Shown in pieces: positions 31,874 through 64,000 of a stretch of 64,000 bases of DNA. Positions within the stretch are counted from its first letter, which is position 1. The number at the start of each line of letters is the position of its first letter. The position numbers were made by a program, and so were the translations under genes. Origin of the DNA: an uncultured Actinomycetes bacterium (GTDB lineage: Bacteria > Actinomycetota > Acidimicrobiia > IMCC26256 > JACDBD01); assembly GCA_963737605.1 (NCBI GenBank), contig CAVTTE010000001.1, positions 2,631-66,630 on the forward strand. Reading direction: 5' to 3'. The notes below the pieces were generated by a model. It was not told the DNA's origin. It saw nothing but the letters and a program-made list of their open reading frames with translations, and did no database searches.

Positions 31874-35473
<3,600 letters not shown>

Positions 35474-41327: not shown

Positions 41328-41343
41328 CGGAGGCACGCTGACG

Positions 41344-42255: not shown

Positions 42256-44973
42256 CCGCCGTCGACCAGCGCGTCGCGGGCGCGGGTGAGGCCGCCGTCG
42301 CGACCAAGCCGGTCGGGCGTGCCCCATGGCGGGCGACGCTCGGCCACTACTTCCCGCTCTTGGTGCTCGTGGGCTTCCTGACGTGGTTCGGTACGGCCCA
42401 GTCGACGGATCGATTCTGGATCACGCTCGGCATCCAAGCCCTCTGGACCGCGATCGCGGTGATCGGCTTGAACATCCTGCTCGGTTACACCGGCCTCCTG
42501 TCGCTCGGGCATTACGCCTTCTTCCTCTACGGCGGCTTCGTCGGCGCGATCTGGGCGGTGCAGGACTGGGGGCTCAGCCCGTGGCTGGGGTTCCCGCTCG
42601 CGTTCGCGGCCGGAATGCTCCTCGGCGCCCTCCTCGCGCTCACCTGCTGTCATCTTCACGGCTTTTACCTCACCGTGGTGACGCTCGCGTTCGGGCTGAT
42701 CGCAGCGGCGCTGGCGTTGCTCTTCGAGAGCCTGTTCAACGGGCTGTCGGGCCGGTCGGTCGACCAACCCCTCGACACGAACTTCTTCTTCCTCGACGCG
42801 AACAACCCGAACCGACCCTTCGTCGGGCTCTACTGGATCGGGGTCGTCCTCCTGCTCCTCTCGCTGTATATGAGCTGGAACCTCGTGCACAGCCGTTGGG
42901 GTCGCGGGTACAAGGCGATCCGAGAATCAGAGGTCGCGGCGAGGCTTTCGGGCATCCCGACCTACTGGTTCAAGGTGTCGGCGTTCGCGCTCTCGGCCGG
43001 GTTCGTCTCGCTCGCCGGGGTCCTCGCGGCGCAGACCAACCTCCAGGTCACGATGGTGAACGGCAGCGCCATCGTGGGCCAGTCGTTCCAGTACGTGATC
43101 TTCGCGTTCTTCGGTGGGCTCGGCACGCTTGCAGGCCCGATCGTGGGCGCGTTCACGTTCACCCTCGGGTTCGGCATCGACTTCGGAGGCGAGAGTTCGA
43201 CGGAGCGGCTGAGCGAGTACGACGCGCTGTTCTACGGCGTGCTGATCATCGTGATCGCGATCGTCGCGCCCCGCGGCATCGTGGGCGCGTGGCACGCCCT
43301 CGTGGCGCGCATCAAGCGTCGTACGACGCCGCAGACTTCGGAGCCGGCACCCGTGTCGGCGGTCTCACCACGGCGGGTCGAGCTCCGGCGCGTCTCGACC
43401 CACGGCCGCAGTGCGCCGCCCGCGCGCGGGCCGATTCTCGACATCCGGGGGGTGACGAAGCGCTTCGGGGGCGTGTCGGCGCTCTCGCACGTCGACGTCG
43501 CGATCGAGCCCGGGAATATCCACGCCGTCATCGGGCCGAACGGTTCGGGGAAGACGACGCTGATCAACGTCGTCACCGGCATCTACCGTTCCGACGACGG
43601 AAGGGTGCTCTTCCGGGACCGCGACCTGACGAGCCTGCCGGCGCAGCGCCGCACCGGGCTCGGCGTCGCCCGAACCTTTCAGGCCTGCCAGATCTGGCGC
43701 CGGATGACCGTGCTCGAGAACGTGATCGTCGGCGCGCACACGCGCACTCGCGCCGGGCTCATCCGCTCGTTGCTCGTCCCCGGCCGGCTCCGGCAGCGAG
43801 GAGCAGCGCGTTCGCGACCGCGCGCTCGAGCTGCTCGCGTTCGTGGGATTGGCCGACCGCAGCGACGAGCCGGCCGGCAGCCTGGCCTTCGGCGACCAGC
43901 GGCGGCTCGAGGTGGCGCGCGCCCTCGCGTCGGAGCCCGACGTCCTGCTGCTCGACGAGCCGGTCGCCGGCATGCACCCACGCGAGATCGGCGACATGAC
44001 CATGCTGATCGAGCAGATCCGGGCGGCCGGGATCACCGTGCTGCTCGTCGAGCACCACGTGGACGTGGTCATGCACCTGTCCGATCGCGTGACCGTGCTC
44101 GACGGCGGCAGAGTGATCTCCGAGGGCACCCCCGCCGAGGTGCGCGCCGACCCGAATGTCATCGCGGCCTACCTCGGGGAGGAGACACGGACGACGCCGG
44201 CTCGCACGTCGCCCGTGCAACCGCTGGTGGCCGACGACCCGGCTCGCGAGGAGCGCGCACCGATCCTGACCGTCCGTGGGCTCCAAGTGCAGTACGGCGC
44301 GGCCCGCGTCCTGCATGGGATCGACCTCGACGTCTGCGAGGGTGAGATCGTCGCCATCATCGGGAGCAACGGCGCCGGGAAGACGACGAGCCTCAAGACC
44401 GTCTCGGGCGTGAGCGAGCTCTTGAAGTCCGTGCACGGCGAGGTCACCTTCCTCGGCGAGCGCGTCGAGCGTCGCCCTGCATACCGGATCGCGCGCATGG
44501 GCATGGCCCACGTGCCGGAGGGACGCCGCGTGTTCGCGGACTCGACGGTCCAGGAGAACCTGTTGCTCGGCGCGTACCGCCGGCGCGATCACCGGGTCGC
44601 CGACGACCTCGAATCGGCGTACGCGCGGTTCCCGGTGCTGAAGGAGCGGCGTCATACGCCGGCCGGCCTCCTGTCGGGCGGCGAGCAGCAAATGCTCGCC
44701 ATCGCCCGCGGCCTCGTCTCCGCGCCGCGCTGCCTGCTGCTCGACGAGCCTTCATTGGGCCTCGCCCCGATCCTCGTCGACCAGGTGTTCGGCATCGTCC
44801 GGGAGCTCGCCCGCGATGGCATGACGATCCTGATCGTCGAGCAGATGGCGACGAAGGCGCTGGCGGTCGCCGACCGCGCCTACGTCCTCGAGACCGGAGT
44901 GATCGCGGCGCAGGGCCCGGCGCTCGAGCTCGCGTCGGATCCCACGGTGCAAGCGACGTACTTCGGCGGGTGA
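42252..44973 (+). CDS. Fused LivM-type permease, LivG-type ATPase and LivF-type ATPase in one reading frame; one +1 frame change (~43785)
   Basis: GTG 42252 overlaps the livH stop (GTGA). The permease part has LLGYTGLLSLGHYAFF. ATPase 1 has GPNGSGKTTL, then, after the shift, LAFGDQRRLEVARAL, LLLDEPVAGM and VEHH. A ~30-aa linker with no stop follows. ATPase 2 has GSNGAGKTTS, LSGGEQQMLAIARGL and LLLDEPSLGLAP. Pieces lie in ORFs 41496..44345 and 43843..44973. Confidence 0.75.
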
Positions 44974-46380
44974 TGACCATGGAGCGGCTGGGCGCCCTCG
45001 ATGCCGAGTTCCTGCACATGGAGGACGGGATCGCGCACATGCACGTCGCCGGCGTCTCGGTGTTCGAGGGCCCGGCCCCGACCGTGGACGAGCTCGGGCG
45101 GCTGCTCACCGCCAAGCTCCACCTCATCCCCCGCTACCGGCAGCGCGTGCGGTTCGCTCCCCTCGCGCTCGGCCGACCGGTGTGGCAGGACGACCCGCAC
45201 TTCAACCTCGCGTACCACCTCCGCCATACGGCGCTGCCCCCGCCGGGCGGCGACGCCGACCTGTGCCGGCTCATGGGCCGGCTCATGTCGCAGCCACTCC
45301 ATCGCGATCGCCCGCTGTGGGAATCCTGGATGGTCGAGGGCTTGCCCAAGGGTCGCTGGGCCGTGATCTCCAAGGTCCACCACTGCATGGTCGACGGGAT
45401 CTCCGGTGTGGAGCTCCTCCACGTGCTGCTCGCCGTGGATCGTGACGAGCCGTTGCCCGAGCCGCAGCCGTGGAAGCCGGCGCCCGAGCCCTCCGGCCCC
45501 GCAGTGGTGGTCGACGCGTGGGAGGGCCTCGCCGGCGACCTCACTGCTGCGCTCCGACGGGTACCGGCGGCGCTGCGCGACCCGCTCGGCGCGGGGCGGT
45601 CCGTCGCGCGGACGAGCCAGGGTGCTCTCCGGTTCGGGCGCCATCTGGCGACCACACCACCGCTCTCGATCGAGGGAACGATCGGGCCGAACCGTGCGTG
45701 GGCGCATTCCTCGGCGAAGATCGACGACATCCGGGTCATCCGCGGCGCGTTTGACGGCACGTTGAACGATGTGGTGCTCGCAGCCGTCGCGGGTGGATAC
45801 CGCGAAGCTGCTGCTCCGTCGCGGCGACGACGCCGACCACGCGGTGCTTCGCTCCCTCGTGCCCGTCTCGGTGCGTTCCGAGGACGCGCGTGGCGATCCC
45901 GGCAACCAGGTGTCGGCGTTCCTGTACGAGCTCCCGGTCCATGTGGCCGACCCGCTCGAGCGGCTCCGCGCGGTCCACGAGGAGATGAGCGATCTCAAGG
46001 AGTCGCACATGGCAGATGCGGGCGAAGCAGCCGTGACCATCGGCGAGCTCGCGCCGCCGATGATCGTAGGGTTGGTTTCCCGAGTCGGCTCGCGCATCAT
46101 GCACCGACTGCCGCAACGCTCGGTCAACACGGTGACGACCAACGTTCCCGGACCCCAGTTTCCGCTGTATTGCCTGGGACGGGAGATGCTCGAGTACTAC
46201 CCCTACGTTCCTCTCAGTCATGGCGTGCGGGTCGGCACCGCCGTCCTCTCGTACAACGGTCGTCTCGCGTTCGGGATCACCGGCGACTTCGACACCGCAT
46301 CCGACGTCGGCGTCCTCGCCCGGGCGATCAAGGCCGGCATCAGAGAGCTCAAGAAGCTCGCGACGAGACAACCTCGGTGA
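44973..46380 (+). CDS. Wax ester synthase / diacylglycerol acyltransferase (WS/DGAT, Tgs family); one frame change (~45790)
   Basis: ATG 44973 overlaps the upstream stop (TGATG). Motifs: LDAEFLHMEDGIAHMHVAGV, KVHHCMVDGISG (HHxxxDG), then NVPGPQFPLYCLGREMLEYYPYVPL. Pieces are ORF 44970..47969 (first ~275 codons) and ORF 45769..46380. Confidence 0.85.
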
Positions 46381-47969
46381 CCGACAACCTCGCCGATGCG
46401 GTCGACTACCTGCACCGCGGGTGGGCCGTTCTCCCGCTGCACGGGATCCGATCCGGGCGCTGCACCTGCGGCCGCCGCGACTGCCCGGCGCCGGGAAAGC
46501 ACCCGAGGATCCGGTGGGAGACCTACCAGTGGCGCGCGCCGCGGGAGGCCGACCTCGAGGCATGGTTCCACCGGTGGCCCGACAGCAACCTCGGCGTCGT
46601 CACCGGGACCATCTCCGGCTTGGTCGTGCTCGACATCGATCCCCGCAACGGCGGTGACGACGAGATGAGCAAACTCGAGCACCTCCACGGCGCCCTCCCC
46701 CCGACGCCGGAAGTCCGCACGGGCGGCGGCGGTGTCCATCTCTACTTCGAGTCCCCGGAGCATCCGATCGCGACGACGATCCTCGGCCCCGGGGTCGACC
46801 TGAAGGCCGACGGCGGCCTCGTCGTGGTTCCACCCAGCGTGCACGCCTCGGGTCACCGCTACGAGTGGGAGCCCGGCGCCGACCCCGACGCGCTGCCGCT
46901 CGCCGACCTGCCCGCCTGGTTGCACCCGCCGGGGTCCGAGGGCGGGCGGGGCGGCGCGGGCGCGCCGGCTCCGCCGCGGTCGACCGCCGACCGCGTCGAG
47001 TTCGCCGATCTCTGGCGCGCGCTCGGCATCGACGTCGTCCCCGGCGACCGCTACTACCGGTGCCCGTTCCACGACGACCATCATCCGTCGCTCCACGTCG
47101 ACGCCGAGGGATGCCGGTGGTACTGCTTCGGATGCCGCCGCGGCGGAGGCCCGGGGCGGCTGCGCCGCCTGGTCGCCCAGAAGGTCGGCGTGTCCGCACG
47201 TCGGCCGGCCGTGTCCCCGCCGCCTGACGACGCGGCGCCGGCGACGACCTGGCTCCAGTGGCCGACGATCCAGCCCGGCGGCACGCAGGAAGTCGTCGGC
47301 GAAGCTGCGCACGTCGATGCGCTCGAGGCCGTCGCCGGCGGCCGGACCTGGGCCGGGCCACGCCACCGTCTCGTCTCTGCCGCGCTCGAGTCGGAGCCGG
47401 CCAACCCGCACGACCCCGACGCGGTACGTGTCCGCGTGGGCGGCGAGACCGTGGGCTATCTACCTCGTGACGACGCGCCGCGGTTCCGCACGCTGGTGAC
47501 CGAGCTTGCGGCGAGACACCGTGCCGCGATCGCGAGAGCCCGCCTCACCGGCGGCTGGGATCGAGGACCGCGCGGTCGCGGCGCGCTCGGGATCGAGCTG
47601 GACGTCGACCCCGACCTCGTTCCGCTCCGGCCCGGTACGCCCTTCCTGCCCGACGAGATCGCGGTCGACGTCGTCGGCGAGGACGGGCATCAGGGACCGC
47701 TCGAGCTCCTCGTGGAACACGCCCCGGGGCGAATCCACGTCGCGACGCTGACGGAGGCGATCGCAGGCCAGGGCCCGCGCATCTCGGTCGAGATCGACGG
47801 TGTGGTGGTCGGGGTGCTCGGCCGCACGGCGACCGAGCGCTATCTGCCGGTGGTTCGAGCCGTCACCGCCGGCGGCTTCCCGACCACGTGTGAGGCGATC
47901 GTGGCCCGCGGCGCGAGGAAGTACGAGTGCCGGATCCTCCTCCCCCGCGTCAGTGGGCTCATGGCGTAG
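46377..47969 (+). CDS. Bifunctional primase-polymerase (PrimPol) domain, CHC2 zinc finger and two HIRAN-like modules
   Basis: GTG 46377 overlaps the WS/DGAT stop (GTGA). PrimPol motifs: GWAVLPL, CPAPGKHPRI, SGLVVLDIDPRNGG (DxD), TGGGGVHLYF, VVVPPSVHASGHRYEW. The zinc finger is YRCPFHDDHHPSLHVDAEGCRWYCFGC. The HIRAN-like modules are EVVGEAAHVDALE...SEPANPHDPDAVRVRVGGETVGYLPRDDA and VVGEDGHQGPLE...ISVEIDGVVVGVLGR. 530 aa, no frame problem seen. Confidence 0.75.
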   Translation: MTDNLADAVDYLHRGWAVLPLHGIRSGRCTCGRRDCPAPGKHPRIRWETYQWRAPREADLEAWFHRWPDSNLGVVTGTISGLVVLDIDPRNGGDDEMSKLEHLHGALPPTPEVRTGGGGVHLYFESPEHPIATTILGPGVDLKADGGLVVVPPSVHASGHRYEWEPGADPDALPLADLPAWLHPPGSEGGRGGAGAPAPPRSTADRVEFADLWRALGIDVVPGDRYYRCPFHDDHHPSLHVDAEGCRWYCFGCRRGGGPGRLRRLVAQKVGVSARRPAVSPPPDDAAPATTWLQWPTIQPGGTQEVVGEAAHVDALEAVAGGRTWAGPRHRLVSAALESEPANPHDPDAVRVRVGGETVGYLPRDDAPRFRTLVTELAARHRAAIARARLTGGWDRGPRGRGALGIELDVDPDLVPLRPGTPFLPDEIAVDVVGEDGHQGPLELLVEHAPGRIHVATLTEAIAGQGPRISVEIDGVVVGVLGRTATERYLPVVRAVTAGGFPTTCEAIVARGARKYECRILLPRVSGLMA

Positions 47970-53519: not shown

Positions 53520-54467
53520 ATGGGCACTGCCGTCCCGACCTGGACATGGGTGGCCTTCGCCGCCGGGATCACGGTTCTGCTCGTCCTCGATCTGCGCGTG
53601 CTCCACCGCCATCCTCACGCACTCGGTGTCCGCGAGGCAGCAATCCAGAGCGCGGGTTGGATCACACTCGGCCTCGCGTTCGGCGTCGTCGTCCTCGCCT
53701 GGCGCGGCAGCACTCTCGGCGGCGAATACTTCTCGGCCTACCTGCTCGAGGAGAGCCTCTCGATCGACAACGTCTTCGCGTGGGCTCTGATCCTCGCCCA
53801 CTTCGCCGTCCCCCCTGCGTTCCAGCACCGGGTGCTGTTCTGGGGAATCCTCGGCGCGATCGTCCTGCGCGTCGTGTTCATCCTCGGCGGCGTCTCGCTC
53901 CTCGAGCGCTTCGACTGGATCGTCTACGTGTTCGGCGCGTTCCTGCTCGTCACGGCGGCGCGCCTCGTGTTCCGCGACGACTCGAAGCTCGACCCGAACC
54001 GCCATCCAATCGGGCGCCTCGTCCACGCGTGGAAGCCACCCATCTCCGAGCTGTCGGAGCCGTTGTTCGTCGTCCGTCGGGGCGGCAGAGCCGTCCTGAC
54101 GCCGTTGTTCGCGGTCCTTCTGCTCGTCGCGACAACTGACGTCATCTTCGCCGTCGACTCCATACCCGCGGTCCTCGGCGTGACGCAGGACCGCTTCGTC
54201 GCGGTCACATCGAACGTCTTCGCCGTCCTCGGCCTGCGGGCGCTCTTCTTCTTGCTCGCCGCGTTGCAGGCTCGCTTCTCGTACCTCCAGCAGGGCATGG
54301 CGGTCATACTCGGCCTCGTCGGCACCAAGATGGTGCTGTCGGGCGTGGTCGAGATCCCGGTCGGACTGTCGATCGCCGCCATCCTGATCGTGCTGGCCGT
54401 GTCGGTCCTCTCCTCCCTGCGAGTGCACCCGGGCGAGGAGGTCTGGCCCGACGGGCGCGTCCCCTGA
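53520..54467 (+). CDS. TerC-family integral membrane protein
   Basis: ORF 53520..54467, 315 aa, intact. Motifs: YLLEESLSIDNVFAW, ATTDVIFAVDSIPAVLGVT. It starts 4 nt after the ATPase stop. Confidence 0.85.
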   Translation: MGTAVPTWTWVAFAAGITVLLVLDLRVLHRHPHALGVREAAIQSAGWITLGLAFGVVVLAWRGSTLGGEYFSAYLLEESLSIDNVFAWALILAHFAVPPAFQHRVLFWGILGAIVLRVVFILGGVSLLERFDWIVYVFGAFLLVTAARLVFRDDSKLDPNRHPIGRLVHAWKPPISELSEPLFVVRRGGRAVLTPLFAVLLLVATTDVIFAVDSIPAVLGVTQDRFVAVTSNVFAVLGLRALFFLLAALQARFSYLQQGMAVILGLVGTKMVLSGVVEIPVGLSIAAILIVLAVSVLSSLRVHPGEEVWPDGRVP

Positions 54468-54473
54468 GGGCTC

Positions 54474-54487
54474 GGGACCTCCGGCCC
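54474..54487. promoter_or_regulatory. Candidate operator, GGGAC CTCC GGCCC
   Basis: It lies in the 129-nt gap between TerC and the ACAD/PfaA-like genes. It matches the 39686 site in 13 of 14 positions. Confidence 0.35.
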
Positions 54488-54513
54488 GCGCCGCGCGTCG
54501 TACGGATCAATTC

Positions 54514-54527
54514 GGGTCGTTCGGCCC
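54514..54527. promoter_or_regulatory. Candidate operator, GGGTC GTTC GGCCC
   Basis: It lies in the same gap. Its centre is 40 bp from the 54474 site and 70-83 nt upstream of ACAD ATG 54597. Confidence 0.3.
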
Positions 54528-54596
54528 CTCAGGACCGACGTTGGCCCCTATCAGGGCATACGGAGGGGGCGCAGCCTCGTGTCAGGGGAATAGAAC

Positions 54597-56251
54597 ATGA
54601 CGGGTCTCGAGCCTGAAGCTCTCGACATGGCCCTGGAGGCGATCGGCGACTTCGCGCACGCCGAATTGCCGCCGCACAAACTGCTCGAATACGACGCCAA
54701 CGACGAAGTCCCTCTCGACGTCGTGCGGGCGATGTGCAGCGACAAGCTGGGCATCCAGCTGCTCTTCATCCCGACGGAATACGAGGGGATGGGCGGCGGG
54801 ACGTTCGACGTGTACCGGGTCTGCGAGGCCATGGCCCATATCGACCTGGGCGTGGCGACCGGCGTGCTGGCGACGTTCCTCGGGAGCGACCCGATCGTGG
54901 TCGGCGGCACCACTGAGCAGAAGAAGCAATGGCTCACACGCATCGCCGACGAGGGGCTGCTGTTCGCCTACGGAGCCACCGAGCCGGAGGCGGGCAGCGA
55001 CCTCGCGGCCTTGAAGACGACGGCTCGTCGAGTCGAGGAGGACGGGCGAGTCGGGTACGTCATCAACGGCAAGAAGCAGTGGATCAGCAACGGCGGCGTC
55101 GCCGATGTCTACAGCATTCTCGCCAATGCCCCGGGCGGGCCGAGCTGGTTCGTCGTCGACGGAGGCGTGCCGGGCTTCGACCACGGCAAGCCGGAGGACA
55201 AGCACGGCATTCGTTCGAGCAACACCGCCGCGCTCATGCTCGACGACGTTCGCGTCGATGCCGATCGTCTCGTCGGAGGCGAAGAAGGCCTGGGTCTGCT
55301 CCAAGCGCAGAAGATCTTCGGCTACACCCGCCTCATGGTGGCCGCGTTCGGACTGGGGGCCGGATGGGCTGCGCTCGACATCGCCATCCCGTACTCCACC
55401 GAGCGCATCCAGGCCGGGACGCCGTTGTCGGAGAAGCAGGGCTACACGCACAAGCTGATCGTCCCGCACGCAGTCGCCCTGGAGGCAGCCCGCGCGTACG
55501 TCGAGGAGACGGCCGAGCGCATCGACGCCGACGAGGGCGACCTCATCACCGAGGGCGCGATCGCCAAGTACCTGGCCACCGAAGCGGGCAACGCGGCTGC
55601 CGATGCGGGCATCCAGGCGCTCGGTGGCTACGGCTATGTGCGCGAGTTCCTGGTCGAGAAGATTCGCCGCGACGTCCGCATCACCACCATCTACGAGGGC
55701 ACCTCCGAGATCATGGAGATGACGATCGCCCGCGATCGCTGGCAGGACCACATCAAGACCCGCGGTCAGCACTACCACGACCGGGCGAAGGAGCTGGAGG
55801 CGCTCCACGACGAGCACCCGGCCGTCGGGGCCGACGTCGCCGCTCTCGCTTTCCACGCCCTCGCCGACGTCCTCGAGCGCGCGCGCGTCGATCGCCTTAC
55901 CCGCAACCAGCACGTGCTGCTGCGATTGGGCGAGCTCATCGCCAAGGCCGAGGGCGCCGCCGCGCTGGCCCGCCGGGCGGCCCGAGCCGAGGCCGGAGCC
56001 CTGAGCCCGAAGGCCGACAAACGATTCGACGCCGACGCCTTGGGCGCGGTGAGCCGGGTGTGGGCTCGCACCGCGGCGCTGACCGTGGCCCAGGGCGGCG
56101 CGCGCTGGGTGCTCGGCGCGGGTGACGAGGCGTTGGGGTCGGCCGACGTCGAGTCGGTCGCTCGGGCTCGGACGCATCCACGCTGCGCAGGCTGGGCTGC
56201 TCGAGCGACATGGACCGCGTTGCCGACGCGCTCTACGGGCGTCGGCCGTGA
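54597..56251 (+). CDS. Acyl-CoA dehydrogenase with a ~170-aa C-terminal extension; two +1 frame changes (~56160, ~56205)
   Basis: This is the first part of ORF 54597..57518. Motifs: [50 protein letters not shown]. The true end [13 protein letters not shown]-stop (TGA 56249..56251) lies two frames on. 1655 nt = 551 codons + 2. Confidence 0.85.
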
Positions 56252-56279
56252 GCCCGGGCGGACGTCCGATGGGAGAGAG

Positions 56280-59200
56280 ATGAACGAGCACCTCGACCGG
56301 GCGGTCGCCGTCGTTGGAGTGGGCGCGATCATGCCCGACGCGCCCGACACGGCGACGTTCTGGGAGAACATCAAGGCCGGTCGCTACAGCATCAGTGACG
56401 TCGACCCGGTGCGCTGGGACCCGGAGCTCTACTACGACCCCGATCCGAAGGCACCGGACAAGACGTACTCGAAGATCGGCGGCTGGGTGCACGACTGGGC
56501 GTGGGACCCGCGTGCCTGGAAGCTGCCGGTCATGCCGCGCGTGGCGGACGCGATGGACGACGCGCAGAAGTGGGCGGTTGCCTGCACGCACCAGGCGCTC
56601 GCCGACTACGGCTACCCGGATCGATCTCTCGACAACGAGCGGGTCGCCGTCGTCTTCGGCAATGCCATGGCCGGGGAGAAGCATTACGAGACGGCGCTGC
56701 GCATCAGCTTTCCTGAGCTCGCCGACGAGCTCGCTGCGGCACCGAGCTTCCGTGCACTGTCCAACGACGTGCAGCGAGCGATCACGACTGAGCTGGGCGA
56801 CACGGTCGACAAGCGATACCCCGAGATCACCGAGGACACCATGCCCGGTGAGCTCTCCAACTGCATCGCCGGGCGGGTCGCCAACTTGTTCAACTTCCGA
56901 GGGCCCAACTACGTCATCGACGCCGCGTGCGCGTCGGCCATGGCCGCGATCAGCTCGGCCGTGGAAGGGCTCGTCGAGGGCGAATACGACGCGGTGATCT
57001 CGGGCGGCATCGACCGCAACATGGGCGCGTCGACGTACGTGAAGTTCTGCAAGATCGGGGCGCTGTCGGCGACCGGGACCCGCCCCTACGCCGAGGGTGC
57101 CGACGGGTTCGTGATGGGCGAGGGTGCCGCCGTGTTCCTGCTGAAGCGTCTTGGCGACGCCATCCGCGCCGGCGACCGCATCTACTGCGTCCTCCTCGGC
57201 CTGGCCGGCTCGAGCGACGGCAAGGGCAAGGGGATCACCGCCCCGAACCCGGTGGGTCAGAAGCTGTGCATCGAGCGAGCGTGGCGCAACGCCGGGGTCG
57301 GCACCGCAGACGGCGACGCTGGTCGAAGGGCACGGCACCTCCACTCGAGTGGGCGACGTGGTGGAGCACGAGAGCATGGCGGCGGTCTTCGGTGGCAACG
57401 GCATCGCGCCCGGGTCCATCGCCCTCGGGTCGGTCAAGTCGAACATCGGCCACCTCAAGGGGGCCGCCGGCGCGGCCGGGCCTCTTCAAGGCGGTCATGT
57501 CACTCCACGAGAAGGTGATCCCGCCCAGTCTCAACTTCTCCCGTCCGAACCCCGACATCGACTTCTCCCTGCAGCCCGTTCCGAGTGAACACCGAGTTGC
57601 GCGAGTGGGAGCGGCCCGAGGCCGGCGTGCGGCGGGCCGGTGTGAGCGCCTTCGGCTTCGGCGGCACCAACTTCCACACCGTCCTCGAGGAGTACGTGCC
57701 AGAGCCGGGTGACGGCGGCGCGAAGACCTACGCGGCACCCGAGGTGAAGGCGACATCGGGCACCGCGTCGGTCCGCGCGCCCGGTCCGGCGCGCGGCACC
57801 GCGGTCGTAGGCGCCGCCACCGAGGCCGAGCTCGGCGAGCGGCTGGCCGGCTTGGCGTCCGACGCCGCTCAGGGTCGGGTCCCCCCCGCGGGGCCCCCCT
57901 CGCGGGACGCCTTGCGCGCGCCCGAACGCGTGGCGATCGACTTCGTCACGGCCGAAGAGCTGGGCGACAAGGCCGTCCGCGCCCAGAAGGCGCTGACCGG
58001 CGACGATGCAGTCTGGAAGTTGTTGCGCTCGCGCGGCGTCTTCCGCGGCAGCGGTCCGGCGCCCAAGGTGGCGTTCCTCTACACCGGGCAGGGCTCGCAG
58101 TACCCGAACATGCTGCGGAAGCTCGCGGAGACCGAGCCGCGGGTCACCGAGGTCTTCGACGAGGCCGACCGCGTCATGACCCCGCTGCTCGGCGGACGCC
58201 GGCTGCGCGACTACCTCTTCGTCGATCCCGGCGACGAGGCCGCGGTGGCGCAGGCCAATGAGGAGCTTCGCCGGACCGAGATCACCCAGCCCGCCGTCCT
58301 CACCGTCGACTACGCGCTCGCACGCGCCTCCTCGACGAGCACGGGCTCCGTCCCGACTTCGTCATGGGCCACAGCCTCGGCGAGTACGGCGCCCTCGTGG
58401 CTGCCGGCGCCCTGTCGTTGGCTGACGCCCTCGAGGCGGTGAGTGCACGGGGCCGCGAGATGGCCAACCTCGACATCGAGGACCACGGCCTCATGGCTGC
58501 GGTGTTCGCGCCCCTCGCCGAGGTGGAGGAGATCGTCGCCGGCATCGCGGGCAACGTCGTCGTCGCCAACGTCAACAGCACGAGCCAGGCCGTCATCGGC
58601 GGCGCCAGCGCGGCGGTTGAGCAGGCGATCGCCGCGCTCAACGCCGCCGGCCATCGCGTCGCGCCGCTGCCCGTGAGCCACGCGTTCCACACCTCGATCG
58701 TGGCGCCGGCCTCCGAGCCGCTGCAGCGCACGCTCGCGCGGCTACGACTGCGGCCACCCGCGATCCCGGTGGTCGCCAACTTGAGCGGCGACTTCTACCC
58801 GATGGGGCCGGGCGTCGAAGCCGAGATGATCGAGATCCTCGGCCGCCAGGTGGCGTCTCCCGTGCAGTTCGCGAAGGGGCTGCGCACGCTCCACGAGAAC
58901 GGAGCCCGGGTGTTCGTCGAGGTCGGCCCGAAGAAGGCCCTGCACGGCTTCGTCGAGGACGTGTTCGGCAGCGAGCCCGACGTGGTCGCCCTTTTCACCA
59001 ACCATCCGAAGTGGGAGGACGACGTCGCCTTCAACCAGGCCCTCTGCGGCCTCTACGCCGCCGGAGTCGGGCCCGGCGACTCGACCGAGGCTCCGGCCGG
59101 GACAACCGACCTGGTCGCAGCGCCGCCCCTGACCGCGGCCGCGCCCGCGACGCACCTCGTCCCGGCTGAGCGGTACTCGGAGCTCGGGCAACTCGTGGCG

Positions 59201-62200
59201 GAGTTCCTCGACCGCACGGTCGAGGCCGACGCCGACGGTGCCGGGCGACGGCGACCGGAGGTCATCGCGGGCGCGGCCCTGGGCGCACCCGGTACCGAAC
59301 GAGTCTTCGATCCCACCAACCTCGGGCGCCTGCTGAATGGTGAGCAGTGCATCAAGGCCATTCCGCCCGAGATTCGGGACGCCATCCTCGGTCAGCACAT
59401 CACCCGTCTGGTCAAGCGCGAGGACGGGAGCGGCAGCTTCGAGACCATCGACGACGCCGCCGACGTCATCAAGCTCGCAGCACGCGCCCACGCATTCGAC
59501 CCTGTCGGGGAGTTCGGCATCGACGCCGAGCGGGTTCCCGCCTTGGAGAACACAACGTGCATGGCCATCGCGGCCGGCTTCGACGCGCTCCGCGACGCCG
59601 GCATCCCGCTGATCCTGCACTACAAGACGACGCACATCGGAACCCGGCTCCCCGAACGCTGGGGCCTCCCCGACGAGCTTCGGGACGACACCGGCGTGAT
59701 CTTCGCCTCCGCCTTTCCCGGACTGGACGCCTTCGCCGGCCACGCTCGCGACTACTACACGGACAAGGCCCGCCGAGAGCAGCTCGCCGCCCTCGAAGCG
59801 GTGCAGGCCAGCCTGTCGAGCATCGACGGAGCCGGCGCCGGCACCGCCGCCGCGAGCGCCGAGCTCGACGGGCGGATCGCAGCGCTGCGAGCCGAGATCG
59901 AGGCCAACCCGTATGTCTTCGATCGTCGCTTCCTGTTCCGCGTGCTCTCCATGGGGCACTCGCAGTTCGCCGAGATCATCGGTGCCCGGGGGCCCAACAC
60001 GCAGGTGAACGCGGCCTGCGCCAGCACCACCCAGGCCATCGCGGTTGCCGAGGACTGGATCCGCACTCGTCGCTGCCGGCGGGTCATCGTCGATCGCGGC
60101 CGACGACGCGACTTCCGACAACCTCCTGGGTTGGATCGGCGCCGGCTTCCTCGCCTCGGGTGCGGCGGCAACCGACGCCGCCGTCGAGGAGGCGGCCACC
60201 CCGTTCGACCGACGCCGCCACGGGATGATCCTCGGAATGGGGGCGGCCGCACTCGTGCTCGAGTCGGCCGAGGCAGCCGAGGAGCGGGGGGTCCGCCCGA
60301 TCGCCGAGGTGCTGTCCGCGTTCACGGCCAACAGCGCCTTCCACGGCACCCGCCTCGACGTGGGCCACATCAGCCAGGCGATGGAGACGCTCGTCAGCCA
60401 GGCCGAGGAGCGGTGGGGCGTGGACCGCCAGGAGATGGCGCCGGCGACGGTGTTCGTCTCCCACGAGACCTACACACCCGCCCGGGGCGGGAGCGCGGCG
60501 GCTGAGGTCGCCTCGCTGCGCTCGGTCTTCGGACCGTCGGCCGAGCCAGATCGTGGTGGCGAACACCAAGGGCTTGACCGGCCATCCCATGGGCGCCGGC
60601 ATCGAGGACGTGGTCGCGGTCAAGAGCCTGGAAACGGGGCTGGTGCCGCCGATCGTCAACTACAAGGAAGCCGACCCCGAGCTCGGCGAGCTGAACCTCT
60701 CGCGCGGCGGCAGCTATCCGGTGCGCTACGCCTTGCGCCTGGCTGCCGGGTTCGGCTCCCAGATCAGCATGACGCTGTTGCGGTGGGTGCCATCGCCCGA
60801 CGGTGGTCGGCGGGCTCCCGACGAGCTGGGCTACGAGTACCGGATCGACGACCCGGCCCGGTGGCGCGGCTGGCTCGCCCGAGTGAGCGGCAACGGCGAC
60901 GCCACGCTCGAGATCGTGCAGCACCAGCTGCGGGTGATCGACACCGAACCGACCGGCGGCGCCGTAAAGGCCCCGGAGGTCGAAGCCGCGCCCCGCCGCG
61001 CCGAGCCCGCGCCCGTCCCGGAGGTCGAGCCCGCGCCGGTCCCGGAGGTCGAGCCCGCGCCGGTCGCCGAGGTGACGGTCGCCGCGCCGGGGTCGGCGAG
61101 GACGACGTGCGCGAGCAGGTGCTCGCCCTGGTGGCAGAGAAGACCGGCTACCCCCAGGACATGCTCGACCTCGACCTGGATCTCGAAGCCGACCTCGGCA
61201 TCGACACGGTCAAGCAGGCCGAGCTGTTCGCCACCGTGCGCGAGGCCTACGGCATCCCCCGCGACGACAACCTGAAGCTGCGCGACTTCCCCACCCTCGA
61301 GCACGTGATCGGCTTCGTGGTCCAGCGGGCCGGCACGACACCCGACACCGCGCCCGCGCCCGTCGAACCGGAGGTCGAGCGCACCGCGGTCCGAGCCGCC
61401 GAGTGAGGCGGCGCCGGCCGGGGTCGGCGAGGACGACGTGCGCGAGCAGGTGCTCGCCCTGGTGGCAGAGAAGACCGGCTACCCCCAGGACATGCTCGAC
61501 CTCGACCTGGATCTCGAAGCCGACCTCGGCATCGACACGGTCAAGCAGGCCGAGCTGTTCGCCACCGTCCGCGAGGCCTACGGCATCCCCCGCGACGACA
61601 ACCTGAAGCTGCGCGACTTCCCCACCCTCGAGCACGTGATCGGCTTCGTGGTCCAGCGGGCCGGCACGACACCCGACACCGCGCCCGCGCCCGTCGAAGC
61701 AGGTCGCGCCGGCGCGAGGTCGCCACCGCGGCCGAGCCGCCGAGTGAGGCGGCGCCGGCCGGGGTCGGCGAGGACGACGTGCGCGAGCAGGTGCTCGCCC
61801 TGGTGGCAGAGAAGACCGGCTACCCCCAGGACATGCTCGACCTCGACCTGGATCTCGAAGCCGACCTCGGCATCGACACGGTCAAGCAGGCCGAGCTGTT
61901 CGCCACCGTGCGCGAGGCCTACGGCATCCCCCGCGACGACAACCTGAAGCTGCGCGACTTCCCCACCCTCGAGCACGTGATCGGCTTCGTGGTCCAGCGG
62001 GCCGGCACGACACCCGACACCGCGCCCGCGCCCGTCGAAGAGGTCGCGGCCGCGCCCGCGCCGAGCCCGGAGGCCACCGTCGGCCTGGAAGCCTGCGACG
62101 CCGTGCCCCGTCGGGTGCCCGTGCCCGTGCTGCGGCCGCCGGTCGACCGCTGCCGCCCGACCGGCGTCACATTGAGCGCAGGTTCGCGCGTCGTGGTGAT

Positions 62201-64000
62201 GCCCGACCGCGGCGGAGTGAGCGAGGCGCTCGTCGAGCTTCTCCGCCGAGCGCGGCGTCGAGCCGTTGGTCATCGAGGGAACGCCGGACGCCGAGAAACT
62301 CGCCGGTCAGCTCGACGCGTGGACCGGTGCCGGCGCCGTCCAGGGCGTCTACTGGCTGCCCGCCCTCGACGTGGAGCCGCCCCTCGCCGAGCTCGACCTC
62401 GCCGGCTGGAGAGAAGGCCTCAGGCTTCGGGTGAAGCTCCTCGCGGCCACGATGCGATCGCTCTACGAGCACGTCGCGTCGGCTGGCACCTTCCTCGTCG
62501 CGGCCACCCGCTTGGGCGGCCGCCACGGCTACGACGAGGCAGGCGCCATCGCCCCACTGGGTGGAGCTGTGACCGGCTTCACCAAGGCCTACAAGCGCGA
62601 GCGTCCGGACACCATGGTCAAGGCGGTCGACGTGGAGGGCGGGGCCGCCCCCGAAGAGGTCGCCGCCGGCCTCGTGAACGAGACCCTGCACGACCCGGGC
62701 GCGGTCGAGATCGGCCGACAGGGCGGGCTCCGGTGGGCCGTCGGCCTGCAAGAGCAACCCGTGGAAGACGGTCAGCCCGGTATGTCGCTCGGCCCGGAAA
62801 CGGTCTTCGTCGTGACCGGCGCTGCCGGCAGCATCGTGTCGGCCATCGTCGCCGACCTGGCCGCGGCGTCGGGCGGGACGTTCCACCTGCTCGACCTCAC
62901 CGCCGAGCCCGACCCCGGAGACCCCGACCTCGAGCGCTTCGTGACCGACCGGGACGGCCTGAAACATGACCTGATCCAGCGCATCAAGGACCGGGGCGAC
63001 CGGGCCACGCCCGCGCTCGTGGAGCGCGAGCTGGCCAGGCTCGAACGCGCGAGGGCCGCGCTCGACGCGGTGCTCGCGGTTCGGGAGGCGGGTGGCGAGG
63101 CCATCTACCACAGCGTGGACCTGCGCGACGCCGCGGCCGTCCGGAAGACGGTCGAGATGGTCCGCGAGCGGCACGGACGGGTCGACGTGCTGTTGCACGC
63201 GGCGGGTCTGGACGCCAGCCACTTCCTCCCCGACAAGTCGGACGAGGAGTACGAGCTGGTCTTCGACGTCAAGAGCGACGGCTGGTTCAACCTGCTCGCC
63301 GCCATCGACGACATGCCGCTGGGCGCCACCGTGTGCTTCAGCTCGGTGGCCGCGCGCTTCGGCAACGGCGGCCAGACCGACTACAGCGCGGCCAACGACC
63401 TGCTGTGCAAGACGACGTCGAGCTTCCGCACCACACGGCCCGAGACGCGCGGCATCGCCATCGACTGGACCGCCTGGGGCGGCATCGGCATGGCCACCCG
63501 GGGCTCCATCCCCAAGATGATGGAGATGGCGGGCATCGACATGCTGCCGCCGGAGGCCGGCGTTCCCTGGGTCCGCCGGGAGCTCGTCGGCGGCGGCCGG
63601 CGCGGTGAGGTGCTGGTGGCGGAGGGTCTCGGCATTCTCATGGAGGAGGCGGACCCCGACGACGGCCTCGACCGAGCCGCCTTGGCCGGGCTCGCCCGCG
63701 GGCCGATGGTCGGAACGGTGAGATCGATGGGGGTCTGGCGACCGCTTGCGGTCGAGACGATGCTGGACCCGACCGCGCAGCCTTTCCTCGACGACCACCG
63801 CATCGACGGCGTGCCCGTGCTGCCCGGCGTGATGGGTGTGGAGGCGTTCGCCGAGGTCGCGGCGCTGGCCGTGCCGGGCTGGCAGGTGGTCTCGATCGAG
63901 GACGTCGCGTTCCTGGCTCCGTTCAAGTTCTACCGCGACGAGCCCCGGCAAGTGACCGTGGAGGCAACGGTCATGCCCGGCGACGGAGGCGAGCTGCTCG
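56280..64000 (+). CDS. PfaA-like multidomain PUFA/polyketide-type synthase, first 7.7 kb (3' end beyond window): KS, malonyl-AT, a second KS with ~90-aa insertion, 3 tandem ACP, KR, PKS-type DH; about 10 frame changes
   Basis: ATG 56280 follows GGGAGAGAG. KS1 motifs: [32 protein letters not shown] motifs: [28 protein letters not shown]2 motifs: [30 protein letters not shown]. The three ACPs each read [33 protein letters not shown] motifs: [22 protein letters not shown]. The DH motif is [15 protein letters not shown]. The frame is open to base 64000. Pieces lie in ORFs 54597..57518, 57151..57588, 56927..57712, 57585..58442, 58364..60505, 60045..61406, 60553..61275, 61438..61947 and 61779..62969, plus an unlisted open frame from 62248. 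Confidence 0.85.
61003..61074 (+). repeat. 3 x 24-nt tandem repeat encoding an EPAPVPEV linker just upstream of the ACP array
   Basis: The units are GAGCCCGCGCCCGTCCCGGAGGTC, GAGCCCGCGCCGGTCCCGGAGGTC and GAGCCCGCGCCGGTCGCCGAGGTG. They translate to [24 protein letters not shown] in ORF 60553..61275. Confidence 0.8.
61089..62039 (+). repeat. Three near-identical 279-nt tandem units (ACP-domain coding) at 61089..61367, 61420..61698 and 61761..62039
   Basis: By direct comparison the cores are identical, except for example G/C at the GCCACCGT(G/C)CGCGAG position of unit 2. Start-to-start distances are 331 and 341 nt. Neither is a multiple of 3, but their sum (672) is. Confidence 0.9.

What the first reader, a model, noticed from the sequence alone, without database searches (positions are those of the whole stretch)
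54474..64000. PfaA-like 'secondary lipid' megasynthase with an additional inserted KS domain, preceded by an extended acyl-CoA dehydrogenase and two candidate operator boxes
Canonical PfaA is KS-MAT-ACPn-KR-DH. Here a second complete KS lies between MAT and the ACPs. It retains Cys (NAACASTTQ), His (SHETYT) and His (GHPMGAG), and it carries a ~90-aa, partly coiled-coil-looking insertion before the active-site Cys.

The gene follows, 28 nt downstream, a 550-aa ACAD with a long C-terminal extension. No PfaB/C/D-type genes are visible upstream. The rest of the cluster, if any, lies beyond base 64000. pfa-like clusters of unknown product have been catalogued in Actinobacteria. The product and the role of a KS-MAT-KS arrangement are, as far as I know, uncharacterised.
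Basis: partly seen in the sequence, partly recalled or inferred. Interest (0 to 1): 0.65.

Follow-up and report, generated by a model that had tools for sequence, protein, structure and literature searches.

The report
Orphan two-ketosynthase soil lipid synthase operon
The region holds the first two genes (a long-chain-type acyl-CoA dehydrogenase and a giant KS-AT-KS-ACP3-KR-DH synthase) of a lipid-synthase operon found in many soil bacterial phyla; it was catalogued in 2011 as "Type R", its product is still unknown, its apparent frame breaks are sequencing errors, and its carrier domains carry threonine where every textbook carrier protein has serine.

Summary
After reading through about 14 single-base assembly errors, 54597-56251 encodes a 550-aa VLCAD-like acyl-CoA dehydrogenase. 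Twenty-eight nt later, 56280 to beyond 64000 encodes one synthase: KS1-AT-KS2-ACPx3-KR-DH.

The frame breaks occur across the whole window. They are absent from short-read DNA contigs, RNA contigs and a 95%-identical JGI contig, so the gene is alive.

KS2 is a complete FabF-fold ketosynthase. Its Cys/His/Lys/His residues are invariant in 53/53 orthologs, and a two-helix insertion precedes the Cys.

The architecture is not new. It is the "Type R secondary lipid synthase" of Shulse & Allen 2011, who called KS2 a "CLF". In relatives the downstream genes are a single-chain acetyl-CoA carboxylase and a PPTase, not PfaB/C/D.

I found three features undescribed in the searched literature:
- The ACAD is a conserved partner (54/59 loci), with EtfBA beside it in Acidobacteriota.
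- A sister clade lacks the ACAD in the one context seen and has a FabK/PfaD-type enoyl reductase fused instead. The ACAD/ETF pair is therefore probably the enoyl reductase.
- Every ACP (198/198 in orthologs, 3/3 here) has Thr at the phosphopantetheine serine position.

The product is unknown.

The parts
54474..54487 (.). Candidate operator box 1, GGGACCTCCGGCCC, at -129 from the ACAD start
   Evidence: It is one of six GGGNC-N4-GNCCC sites in the window. All six lie in segments called non-coding, and all six have T at position 7. It is only partly conserved in the 95%-identical contig L081 (GGGACCTCCGGACT).
54514..54527 (.). Candidate operator box 2, GGGTCGTTCGGCCC, at -89 from the ACAD start and 40 nt from box 1
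   Evidence: Identical in L081. It overlaps a local direct repeat GGCCCCT(0-2)CAGG at 54523-54533 and 54543-54555 (2 matches against 0.10 expected; the pattern was chosen post hoc).
54597..56251 (+). VLCAD-like acyl-CoA dehydrogenase, 550 aa after correcting about 4 one-base indels at 56129-56204. The catalytic Glu lies in IYEGTSEI. The C-terminal ~165 aa form a helical domain.
   Evidence: Pfam Acyl-CoA_dh_N/M/1. 80% identical to the L002 ACAD. 96% identical to an intact 550-aa JGI protein, P0121. The DNA alignment to L081 shows the indels. MCAD alignment. The AF2 model (pLDDT 85.8) best matches VLCAD-type ACADs 3owa, 2z1q and 7s7g, TMq 0.75-0.81.
56271..56282 (+). Ribosome-binding site GGGAGAGAG and the ATG start of the synthase. 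The gap after the ACAD stop is 28 nt.
   Evidence: The same 28-nt spacing appears in the L081 gene calls, and 30 nt in L002.
56280..64000 (+). Type R synthase gene, 5' ~7.7 kb, equivalent to about 2350 of the 2550 residues of the L002 ortholog. It runs off the window end. About 10 spurious frame changes lie at 57294, 57476, 57569, 58319 (2 nt), 60091, 60544, ~61090, ~61404, ~61714 and 62248.
   Evidence: tblastn with the intact L002 protein, the frame HMM, and indels seen in DNA and RNA contigs.
56280..57700 (+). KS1 (PfaA-type ketosynthase). Cys codon 56928-56930 (DAACAS), with HGTST and KSNIGH motifs.
   Evidence: Pfam ketoacyl-synt 3.6e-58, translation, and NCBIfam PfaA best stretch 9-927 in L002.
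58060..58990 (+). Malonyl-type acyltransferase (GQGSQ, GHSLGE with Ser 58373-58375, HAFH)
   Evidence: Pfam Acyl_transf_1 and translation.
59255..60795 (+). KS2, a second complete ketosynthase. Helical-hairpin insertion at ~59720-59920. Cys 60017-19, His 60462-64, Lys/His 60568-85, GFGSQ.
   Evidence: The Cys/His/His residues align to those of FabF and are invariant in 53/53 orthologs. The AF2 model gives FabF TMt 0.80-0.86. KS2 is 25% identical to KS1.
61065..62048 (+). Three near-identical tandem ACP domains (period ~341 nt, 96% identical). Each has Thr (ACG at 61206-08, 61537-39, 61878-80) at the phosphopantetheine-Ser position.
   Evidence: TRF, Pfam PP-binding x3, Thr aligned to the Ser of solved ACPs, codons, and 198/198 Thr in orthologs.
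63040..63480 (+). Ketoreductase (TGAAGSI Rossmann motif, YSAAN)
   Evidence: Pfam KR 3.9e-21 and translation.
63745..64000 (+). N-terminal part of the PKS-type dehydratase (HxxxGxxxxP: [10 protein letters not shown]), cut by the window end
   Evidence: Pfam PKS_DH_N 7e-12. L002 continues with PS-DH to residue 2550.

Best explanation
The region is the 5' part of an intact, expressed operon: acad - synthase - (single-chain acetyl-CoA carboxylase) - PPTase. It most likely belongs to a soil Acidimicrobiales bacterium and is a member of the 'Type R secondary lipid synthase' family. The frame breaks are single-base assembly errors.

**Mechanism. Domain identities are shown; roles are inferred.**
- The operon's own ACC makes malonyl-CoA.
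- The HAFH-type AT loads malonyl units onto three tandem carrier domains. These are activated by the operon's own PPTase, apparently on a threonine.
- Two ketosynthases, both with Cys-His-His, carry out the condensations. They probably divide the work by chain length, as the PfaA and PfaC ketosynthases do in PUFA synthases.
- KR and the PKS-type DH produce the enoyl intermediate.
- The VLCAD-like ACAD supplies the missing enoyl reduction. It would draw electrons from EtfBA, which is encoded next to it in Acidobacteriota. I put this at about 0.5.
- The system would then be a self-contained, high-flux type I fatty-acid-like synthase making a long, largely saturated acyl chain for a bulk lipid. 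The final product and the release step are unknown.
For: **Gene is intact.**
- Candidate frameshifts are window-wide: about 30 outside the region and 9-10 inside.
- Short-read contigs from four soil metagenomes lack the extra bases at exactly the frame-change sites. The same is true in an unrelated part of the window.
- RNA-seq contigs cover 54609-63501 but not the upstream genes, and also lack the extra bases.
- L081 (95% nt identity) and P0121 (96% aa identity) are intact.

**Family and operon.**
- L002 has ACAD 557 aa, synthase 2550 aa, ACC 1865 aa and PPTase 237 aa.
- ACAD lies directly upstream in 54/59 loci, ACC follows in 49/59, and a PPTase lies downstream in 55/59.
- The Type R description matches, including ACC present in Koribacter relatives and absent from two of the three Solibacteraceae loci.

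**KS2 looks active:**

**ACAD as reductase.**
- EtfB-EtfA lie directly upstream in 28 loci.
- A sister clade has a FabK/PfaD-type NMO domain fused N-terminally. The one genomic context examined has no ACAD and reads accC-BCCP-CT-synthase-PPTase-gpsA.
- The VLCAD fold implies long chains.

**High flux:** tandem ACPs and a dedicated ACC.
Against: - No experiment links any member to a product. I found no functional paper.
- ACADs normally oxidise. The sequence does not reveal the direction. The closest solved relatives are MCAD and SCAD, which are oxidative.
- No etf genes are present in the window or in the Acidimicrobiia loci.
- The ER-for-ACAD displacement rests on one examined genomic context (L083/L084) plus domain fusions.
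- No thioesterase or other release enzyme is conserved nearby.
- The downstream ACC and PPTase are inferred from relatives at 72-74% identity, not seen in the window.
- In E. coli, a carrier-protein Ser-to-Thr change abolishes modification, so carrier function here depends on unproven chemistry.
Confidence: 0.75

Rival explanations
1. The gene, and the ACAD tail, is a real pseudogene in this organism. The frameshifts exist in the DNA and the synthase is dead.
For: About 14 frame disruptions in 9.4 kb. The source's own gene call P0001 ends in out-of-frame junk.
Against: The same kind of break occurs throughout the window, in the ATPase, TerC, WS/DGAT and many other genes. Independent DNA and RNA contigs from close relatives lack the extra bases at the same sites. 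The intervening sequence keeps 74-80% amino-acid identity to orthologs and strong GC3 periodicity. Other long-read MAG proteins show the same artefact (P0002, P0003).
Confidence: 0.04
2. KS2 is a non-catalytic chain-length-factor-like partner of KS1, as labelled in 2011. It shapes the pocket but does not condense.
For: Shulse & Allen call it CLF. It is very divergent: fabF 141.7 bits against a cut-off of 493.75, and Pfam covers only part of it. It has an unusual HETYT motif and a helical insertion.
Against: The defining CLF feature, loss of the active-site Cys, is not met. Cys, both His, the Lys and GFGSQ are invariant in 53/53 orthologs at 55-90% identity and align to the catalytic residues of FabF. 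The fold is complete.
Confidence: 0.2
3. The ACAD is a tailoring or oxidative enzyme: an acyl-ACP or acyl-CoA dehydrogenase that adds an alpha,beta (or further) double bond, or that links the product to beta-oxidation. With no enoyl reductase, the synthase makes a polyene or a hydroxy/enoyl lipid, as enediyne PKSE-type KS-AT-ACP-KR-DH enzymes do.
For: ACADs and ETF normally run oxidatively. The closest solved relatives are oxidative MCAD, SCAD and VLCAD. There is no ER domain in cis.
Against: The sister clade fuses a FabK/PfaD-type ER to the same synthase and, in the one context seen, has no ACAD. A dedicated ACC, tandem ACPs and a gpsA neighbour point to bulk acyl-lipid synthesis. The top NCBIfam match of the ACAD is a reductive family member, acryloyl-CoA reductase, though far below its cut-off.
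Confidence: 0.3
4. It is a canonical PUFA synthase whose PfaB/C/D partners lie beyond base 64000.
For: The best NCBIfam hit is PfaA, TIGR02813. It has the KS-AT-ACPn-KR-DH backbone.
Against: The score of 774.5 is below the cut-off of 1010.1. In 59 related loci the downstream genes are ACC and/or PPTase, never PfaB/C/D. No FabA-type DH is conserved.
Confidence: 0.02

Closest known systems
Type R secondary lipid synthase (Shulse & Allen 2011, PLoS One, PMC3098273): Koribacter versatilis, Solibacter usitatus, Elusimicrobium minutum, Roseiflexus spp.
   Same: A single pfaA homolog with KS-MAT-(second KS-fold domain)-ACP(3-6)-KR. A PPTase gene lies downstream, and an ACC gene sits between them in Koribacter. 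The product is uncharacterised. My related loci include Korobacteraceae (with ACC), Solibacteraceae (two of three loci without ACC) and Roseiflexaceae homologs.
   Different: This copy is from an Acidimicrobiales-like actinobacterium. The paper labels the second domain 'CLF', but it keeps Cys/His/His. The paper does not mention the conserved ACAD or EtfBA, the C-terminal DH, or the Thr in the carrier domains.
PfaA of bacterial PUFA synthases (pfaABCDE; NCBIfam TIGR02813)
   Same: KS-MAT-tandem ACP-KR-DH order. The ACP repeats are near-identical, and it is the best-scoring named family.
   Different: It scores below the family cut-off. It has an extra KS2. There are no PfaB, PfaC (KS-CLF-FabA DH) or PfaD partners. 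The ACPs have Thr rather than Ser.
KS-CLF pairs (PfaC didomain; type II PKS such as actinorhodin KS/CLF, PDB 1tqy)
   Same: Two thiolase-fold KS-type domains in one system. 1tqy chains are among the structural matches.
   Different: A CLF lacks the catalytic Cys, whereas KS2 keeps it. KS1 and KS2 are separated by the AT. KS2 is closer to FabF than to any PKS KS.
Very-long-chain acyl-CoA dehydrogenase type ACADs (human VLCAD 7s7g/3b96; B. anthracis 3owa; T. thermophilus 2z1q). ACAD-family reductases that work with ETF (Bcd/EtfAB 5ol2, CarC 6fah, AcrC) are named only as precedents.
   Same: An MCAD-like core with the catalytic Glu, plus a C-terminal helical domain (TMq 0.75-0.81). There is genetic linkage to EtfBA.
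   Different: Only 23-27% identical to VLCAD-type structures. It is embedded in a synthase operon, and neither substrate (ACP- or CoA-bound) nor direction is known.
Single-chain multidomain bacterial ACC, SACE_4237 of Saccharopolyspora erythraea (Livieri 2019, PMC6491548)
   Same: The gene after the synthase in relatives has the same BC-BCCP-ACC_central-CT single-polypeptide layout.
   Different: It is not visible in the window. That paper describes a housekeeping ACC and mentions no synthase context.

Membership tests
Type R secondary lipid synthase (Shulse & Allen 2011) | One pfaA homolog with domain order KS-MAT-second KS-fold domain ('CLF')-ACP-KR | tested here: met
   Pfam hits on window pieces. 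tblastn colinearity with the intact 2550-aa L002 protein.
Type R secondary lipid synthase (Shulse & Allen 2011) | 3-6 tandem ACP domains | tested here: met
   Three PP-binding hits and a 2.9-copy tandem array. Orthologs have 1-7.
Type R secondary lipid synthase (Shulse & Allen 2011) | PPTase gene downstream (with or without an ACC gene between) | not testable with these tools
   The window ends inside the synthase. In relatives a PPTase is present in 55/59 loci and an ACC in 49/59.
Type R secondary lipid synthase (Shulse & Allen 2011) | Groups with the Koribacter, Solibacter and Roseiflexus homologs | tested here: met
   This was tested by similarity only; no tree was built. Korobacteraceae and Solibacteraceae loci are 64-66% identical over KR-DH, with the same operon. 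A Roseiflexaceae hit, P0106, scores E 7e-146.
PfaA, PUFA synthase subunit (NCBIfam TIGR02813) | Whole-protein score above the curated cut-off of 1010.1 bits | tested here: not met
   774.5 bits for the intact ortholog L002.
PfaA, PUFA synthase subunit (NCBIfam TIGR02813) | Partner genes pfaB, pfaC (KS-CLF-FabA-type DH x2) and pfaD (ER) in the cluster | tested here: not met
   Absent upstream in the window and absent from 59 related loci.
Chain length factor (CLF) | KS fold with the active-site Cys replaced | tested here: not met
   The Cys is present, aligned to the FabF Cys, and invariant in 53/53 orthologs.
Condensing ketosynthase of the FabF/FabB (KAS I/II) type | Complete thiolase fold with a Cys-His-His triad, Lys, and the GFGG-type loop | tested here: met
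   It does not reach the fabF equivalog cut-off (141.7 against 493.75), so it is a divergent member. Catalysis is untested.
Acyl-CoA dehydrogenase, VLCAD-type architecture | The three ACAD domains, a catalytic Glu in the YEG motif, and an extra C-terminal helical domain | tested here: met
   Pfam, MCAD alignment, and Foldseek full-length matches to 3owa, 2z1q and VLCAD. Substrate and direction were not tested.
4'-phosphopantetheine carrier domain (Pfam PP-binding) | Conserved Ser at the start of helix II as the attachment site | tested here: not met
   Thr is at that position in 3/3 window ACPs and 198/198 ortholog ACPs. The fold family is met (PP-binding 27-29 bits).
DosR/DevR-type operator | Palindrome GGGAC-N4-GTCCC upstream of regulon genes, enriched over chance | tested here: inconclusive
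   The strict core with 1 mismatch gives 7 hits against 7.7 expected. The relaxed GGGNC-N4-GNCCC gives 6 hits against 5.2 expected, but all six are in non-coding DNA and share T at position 7. No regulator was identified.

The most novel reading that the evidence does not exclude
The whole family uses threonine-linked 4'-phosphopantetheine. Its carrier domains (Thr in 198/198 orthologous ACPs; Ser and Thr alternate at the same site in rare relatives) would be activated by the co-inherited PPTase on a secondary alcohol. That modification is not described in the literature I could search, and E. coli AcpS cannot perform it. In addition, an ACAD/ETF pair replaces the usual enoyl reductase. Together this would be a previously unrecognised kind of self-contained fatty-acid synthase, spread across soil phyla.
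Probability: 0.4. Interest if true: 0.85.

Novelty: new member of a known kind. Interest (0 to 1): 0.55.

Why it matters
- **Scale and neglect.** Type R synthases are among the most widespread large biosynthetic genes of uncultured soil bacteria: Acidobacteriota, Actinomycetota, Myxococcota, Binatia, Chloroflexota and others. The KS2 N-terminal half alone finds 354 cluster representatives at E<=1e-30. They are transcribed in soil, yet fifteen years after being catalogued they have no known product.
- **Working model.** This analysis turns a domain cartoon into a testable model: two active ketosynthases, an ACAD/ETF pair acting as enoyl reductase, a dedicated ACC, and Thr-type carrier domains with a private PPTase.
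- **If Thr-linked phosphopantetheine is real.** It changes a textbook rule used by every annotation pipeline to call carrier domains active or dead. It would also explain why the PPTase always travels with the synthase.
- **Practical warning.** High-GC long-read MAGs can shred such genes into many false ORFs.

Tried and rejected
- **Source contig look-up.** Looking up the source contig through its own gene call P0001 found nothing on record. The sequence beyond 64000 could not be obtained.
- **RNA and signal scans.** Rfam at gathering thresholds found nothing across the whole window. Sigma-70 promoter and intrinsic terminator scans of 54300-54700 found nothing.
- **Strict DosR core.** GGGAC-N4-GTCCC with 1 mismatch occurs at chance frequency.
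- **Upstream motif in relatives.** It is only weakly conserved: 3 exact hits in 55 loci against 0.4 expected.
- **Extra conserved neighbours.** All-against-all clustering of ORFs in the related loci was swamped by spurious antisense ORFs in high-GC DNA. It found no thioesterase, acyltransferase or other conserved neighbour.
- **Literature.** Nine searches looked for a product or function of Type R/PfaA-like clusters, and for Thr-linked phosphopantetheine. Apart from the 2011 catalogue and the S36T control, they found nothing.
- **Rejected readings:**
  - ACAD-synthase fusion. The open frame joining them is an artefact of about 4 indels.
  - Mis-assembly of two genes. There is a single ORF in 53 loci.
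  - Recent duplication of KS1. KS1 and KS2 are only 25% identical.
- **Not done.** I built no formal KS phylogeny including PfaC KS/CLF, because no reference sequences were available offline.

Full report
**1. What the raw sequence shows.**
- The window is about 72% G+C.
- On the + strand from 54597 onward, third-position GC is very high, but the coding frame jumps repeatedly.
- Pfam on the open stretches gives, in order: ACAD domains, KS, AT, a weak second KS, three PP-binding domains, KR, and the N-terminus of a PKS dehydratase that runs off at 64000.
- Read literally, there is no stop between the ACAD and KS1. The synthase is cut into about ten pieces in three frames.

**2. The frame breaks are assembly errors, not gene decay.**
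- A codon-position HMM over the whole window finds about 39 same-strand frame switches with no in-frame stop nearby. About 30 of them lie outside the finding. They hit the P-type ATPase, a WS/DGAT gene and many others.
- Contigs from four independent soil metagenomes, 90-99% identical, lack 1-2 bases at 56135, 56160, 56204, 57294, 57476, 57569, 58319, 60092 and 62249. These are exactly my frame-change sites.
- The same pattern appears in an unrelated stretch, at 32580, 32906, 33040, 33341, 33786, 33855 and 34704.
- Soil RNA-seq contigs cover 54609-63501 but give zero depth over TerC and the ATPase. They also lack the extra bases at 57294, 58319, 60091, 60544 and 62248.
- A JGI short-read contig, L081, is 95% identical in DNA. 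It carries an intact 550-aa ACAD (P0121, 96% aa identity), a 28-nt gap and the start of the synthase. The window differs from it by four one-base indels in the ACAD tail and two in TerC.
- With those corrected, the ACAD ends ...[17 protein letters not shown] at TGA 56249-51. The synthase starts at ATG 56280 behind GGGAGAGAG.

**3. Anatomy.**
- *KS1* has DAACAS, HGTST and KSNIGH motifs. *AT* has GHSLGE and HAFH, the malonyl type.
- *KS2* (59255-60795) aligns to FabF with Cys, His and Lys/His on the catalytic positions.
  - In 53 intact orthologs, the motifs NxACxS, SHETYTPA, NTKGxTGH and GFGSQ are invariant.
  - An AlphaFold model of an Ilumatobacteraceae ortholog has pLDDT 75. It superposes on the whole of FabF (TM 0.80-0.86 by target).
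  - The roughly 90 extra residues before the Cys form two long helices.
  - KS2 is only 25% identical to KS1. It scores far below the fabF cut-off. It is an old, divergent, but catalytically equipped KS, not a CLF in the strict sense.
- *ACPs.* Three ACP units form a 96%-identical tandem array.
- *KR and DH* carry their usual motifs.
- *ACAD.* The core is MCAD/SCAD-like with the catalytic Glu. A full-length model (pLDDT 85.8) best matches VLCAD-type enzymes, including their C-terminal helical domain. The 'long extension' is therefore the VLCAD-type domain, which suggests long-chain substrates.

**4. Context from relatives.**
- A scan of one genome per species found 251 relatives. The closest are Acidimicrobiia/Acidimicrobiales MAGs at 72-74% identity. 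Next come Acidobacteriota, Binatia, Myxococcota, Thermoleophilia, Rhodothermales and others.
- In L002 the genes are intact: ACAD (557 aa), a 30-nt gap, the synthase (2550 aa), a single-chain BC-BCCP-central-CT carboxylase (1865 aa), then a PPTase (237 aa).
- Across loci with enough flank, ACAD lies directly upstream in 54/59, ACC follows in 49/59, and a PPTase lies downstream in 55/59.
- In 28 Acidobacteriota/Binatia loci, etfB-etfA lie immediately upstream of the ACAD on the same strand.
- No PfaB/C/D, thioesterase or other conserved neighbour was found.

**5. What is known.**
- Shulse & Allen (2011) defined 'Type R'. It is one pfaA homolog, KS-MAT-CLF-ACP(3-6)-KR, followed by a PPTase. Koribacter has an ACC gene between the two, and the other members do not. 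It occurs in Acidobacteria, Elusimicrobia and Roseiflexus, and the product is unknown.
- My loci reproduce this pattern. Korobacteraceae have the ACC. Two of the three Solibacteraceae loci lack it. Roseiflexaceae homologs are present.
- The architecture is therefore catalogued, and this window is a new member from an actinobacterial lineage.
- The synthase scores below the curated PfaA cut-off (774.5 against 1010.1).
- I found no later functional study.

**6. How it probably works.**
- *Shown:* the domain set KS, AT, KS, ACPn, KR and DH with no ER in cis; a dedicated ACC and PPTase; a conserved ACAD, with EtfBA in some lineages.
- *Clue from a sister clade.* Searching 1.84 billion representatives with the family-specific KS2 N-terminal half gave 354 hits at E<=1e-30.
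  - Several long members carry a FabK/PfaD-type NMO (enoyl reductase) domain fused in front of KS1. They often also carry the PPTase fused at the C-terminus (P0314, P0320, P0361).
  - In L083 the context is accC-BCCP-carboxyltransferase, then ER-KS-AT-KS2-ACP2-KR-DH, then PPTase, then gpsA. There is no ACAD.
- *Inference.* The family needs an enoyl reductase. Where none is fused, the ACAD/ETF pair takes that place (non-orthologous displacement).
  - ACAD-family enzymes running reductively with ETF have precedents: Bcd/EtfAB, CarC and AcrC. That statement is my own knowledge. The first two appear among the structural and sequence matches, and AcrC is the top NCBIfam hit.
  - I put this role at about 0.5. 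The main rival is an oxidative or tailoring ACAD with a polyene-type product, at about 0.3.
- A dedicated ACC, tandem ACPs and the gpsA neighbour argue for a bulk acyl lipid rather than a trace metabolite.
- Two active KS domains probably split the chain-length range. This is by analogy with the PUFA synthase KS of PfaA and PfaC, and is not tested.

**7. An unexpected feature: threonine carrier domains.**
- All three window ACPs read ...[16 protein letters not shown]..., with ACG codons at 61206, 61537 and 61878.
- The Thr aligns exactly with the phosphopantetheinyl-Ser of solved ACPs: PigH, AcpP-type proteins and CurA.
- It is Thr in 198/198 ACPs of 53 orthologs, and in 204 of 218 motif matches in the wider family, including the ER-fused clade.
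- One relative has Ser in all five ACPs. Another has Ser-Thr-Ser within one protein. The site is therefore the same one, and Ser and Thr are exchangeable in evolution.
- In E. coli, ACP S36T cannot be modified and is non-functional (PMC3340395).
- I found no report of Thr-linked phosphopantetheine.
- The simplest reading is that the co-inherited PPTase modifies Thr. This is inference only, and it is the most novel reading.

**8. The 'operator boxes'.**
- The finding starts exactly at GGGACCTCCGGCCC (54474). A second copy, GGGTCGTTCGGCCC, lies 40 nt downstream.
- The relaxed palindrome GGGNC-N4-GNCCC occurs six times in the window, which is the chance number (5.2 expected).
- However, all six lie in the ~9% of the window that my frame model calls non-coding, in four intergenic regions. 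All six have T at position 7.
- The other sites lie in intergenic regions next to three sets of genes:
  - a Liv-type ABC operon that ends in a WS/DGAT gene;
  - the P-type ATPase;
  - a DUF1918-GAPDH gene, divergent from a GNAT/ADP-forming acyl-CoA synthetase-like gene.
- Box 2 is identical in L081, and box 1 is half-changed.
- More distant relatives keep the motif only sporadically.
- The boxes are therefore plausible sites for a NarL/DosR-like regulator. The hypoxia link remains speculation.

**9. Verdict.**
- The locus is an ordinary, intact and expressed member of a catalogued but functionally orphan family.
- Its interest lies in the family: active KS2, ACAD/ETF as the likely ER, and Thr-type carriers.

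Noticed in passing
window 61206-61208, 61537-61539, 61878-61880 (and all ACPs in L001-L080): Every tandem ACP has Thr ([11 protein letters not shown]) at the canonical phosphopantetheine-Ser position. This holds for 198/198 ACPs in 53 orthologs. Rare relatives have Ser, or mixed Ser/Thr, at the same site (P0327, P0348). E. coli ACP S36T is unmodifiable.
   Followed up: yes
whole window, e.g. 32580, 32906, 33040, 33341, 33786, 33855, 34704, 45792, 53035: The window carries roughly one spurious single-base indel per 1-1.5 kb, mostly extra bases. These break most genes into false ORFs, as is typical of an unpolished long-read MAG. Short-read contigs of related populations lack them.
   Followed up: yes
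window 26977, 39686, 48935, 49311, 54474, 54514: Six GGGNC-N4-GNCCC boxes, all with T at position 7, all lie in intergenic DNA. The adjacent genes are DUF1918-GAPDH, a Liv-type ABC operon ending in WS/DGAT, a P-type ATPase, and the ACAD-synthase operon. This is a possible small regulon of a NarL/DosR-like regulator.
   Followed up: partly
P0314, P0320, P0361; L083 2171-17268: A sister clade of the synthase has a FabK/PfaD-type NMO enoyl reductase fused N-terminally, and often the PPTase fused C-terminally. In L083 it is flanked by a three-gene ACC and by gpsA, with no ACAD.
   Followed up: partly
L007-L056 (e.g. L009 6-1684); L072, L074, L075: etfB-etfA lie directly upstream of the ACAD in 28 Acidobacteriota/Binatia loci. 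In three Thermoleophilia/Actinomycetes loci, weaker etf matches lie upstream on the opposite strand. None is present in the window or in the Acidimicrobiia loci.
   Followed up: partly
window 44970-46359: A WS/DGAT wax-ester/triacylglycerol synthase gene, split by a frame error at ~45792, lies at the end of a Liv-type ABC transporter operon (39797-44968). A Prim-Pol/zinc-ribbon/HIRAN protein follows at 46362-47963.
   Followed up: partly
window 61002-61073: A 24-nt unit repeated three times (93% matches) encodes a Pro/Ala-rich (EPAPVPEV)n linker just before the first ACP.
   Followed up: no
L002 1557-2873: In the closest intact relative, a HisKA_3-type histidine kinase (the partner type of NarL-family regulators) lies immediately upstream of the ACAD. 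The window has TerC and a P-type ATPase there instead.
   Followed up: no
P0121-P0240: The ACAD is unusually conserved across phyla: 71-87% identity between Acidimicrobiales, Acidobacteriota, KSB1, Krumholzibacteriia and others. This is much higher than for the synthase, and suggests strong constraint or recent horizontal spread of the operon.
   Followed up: no
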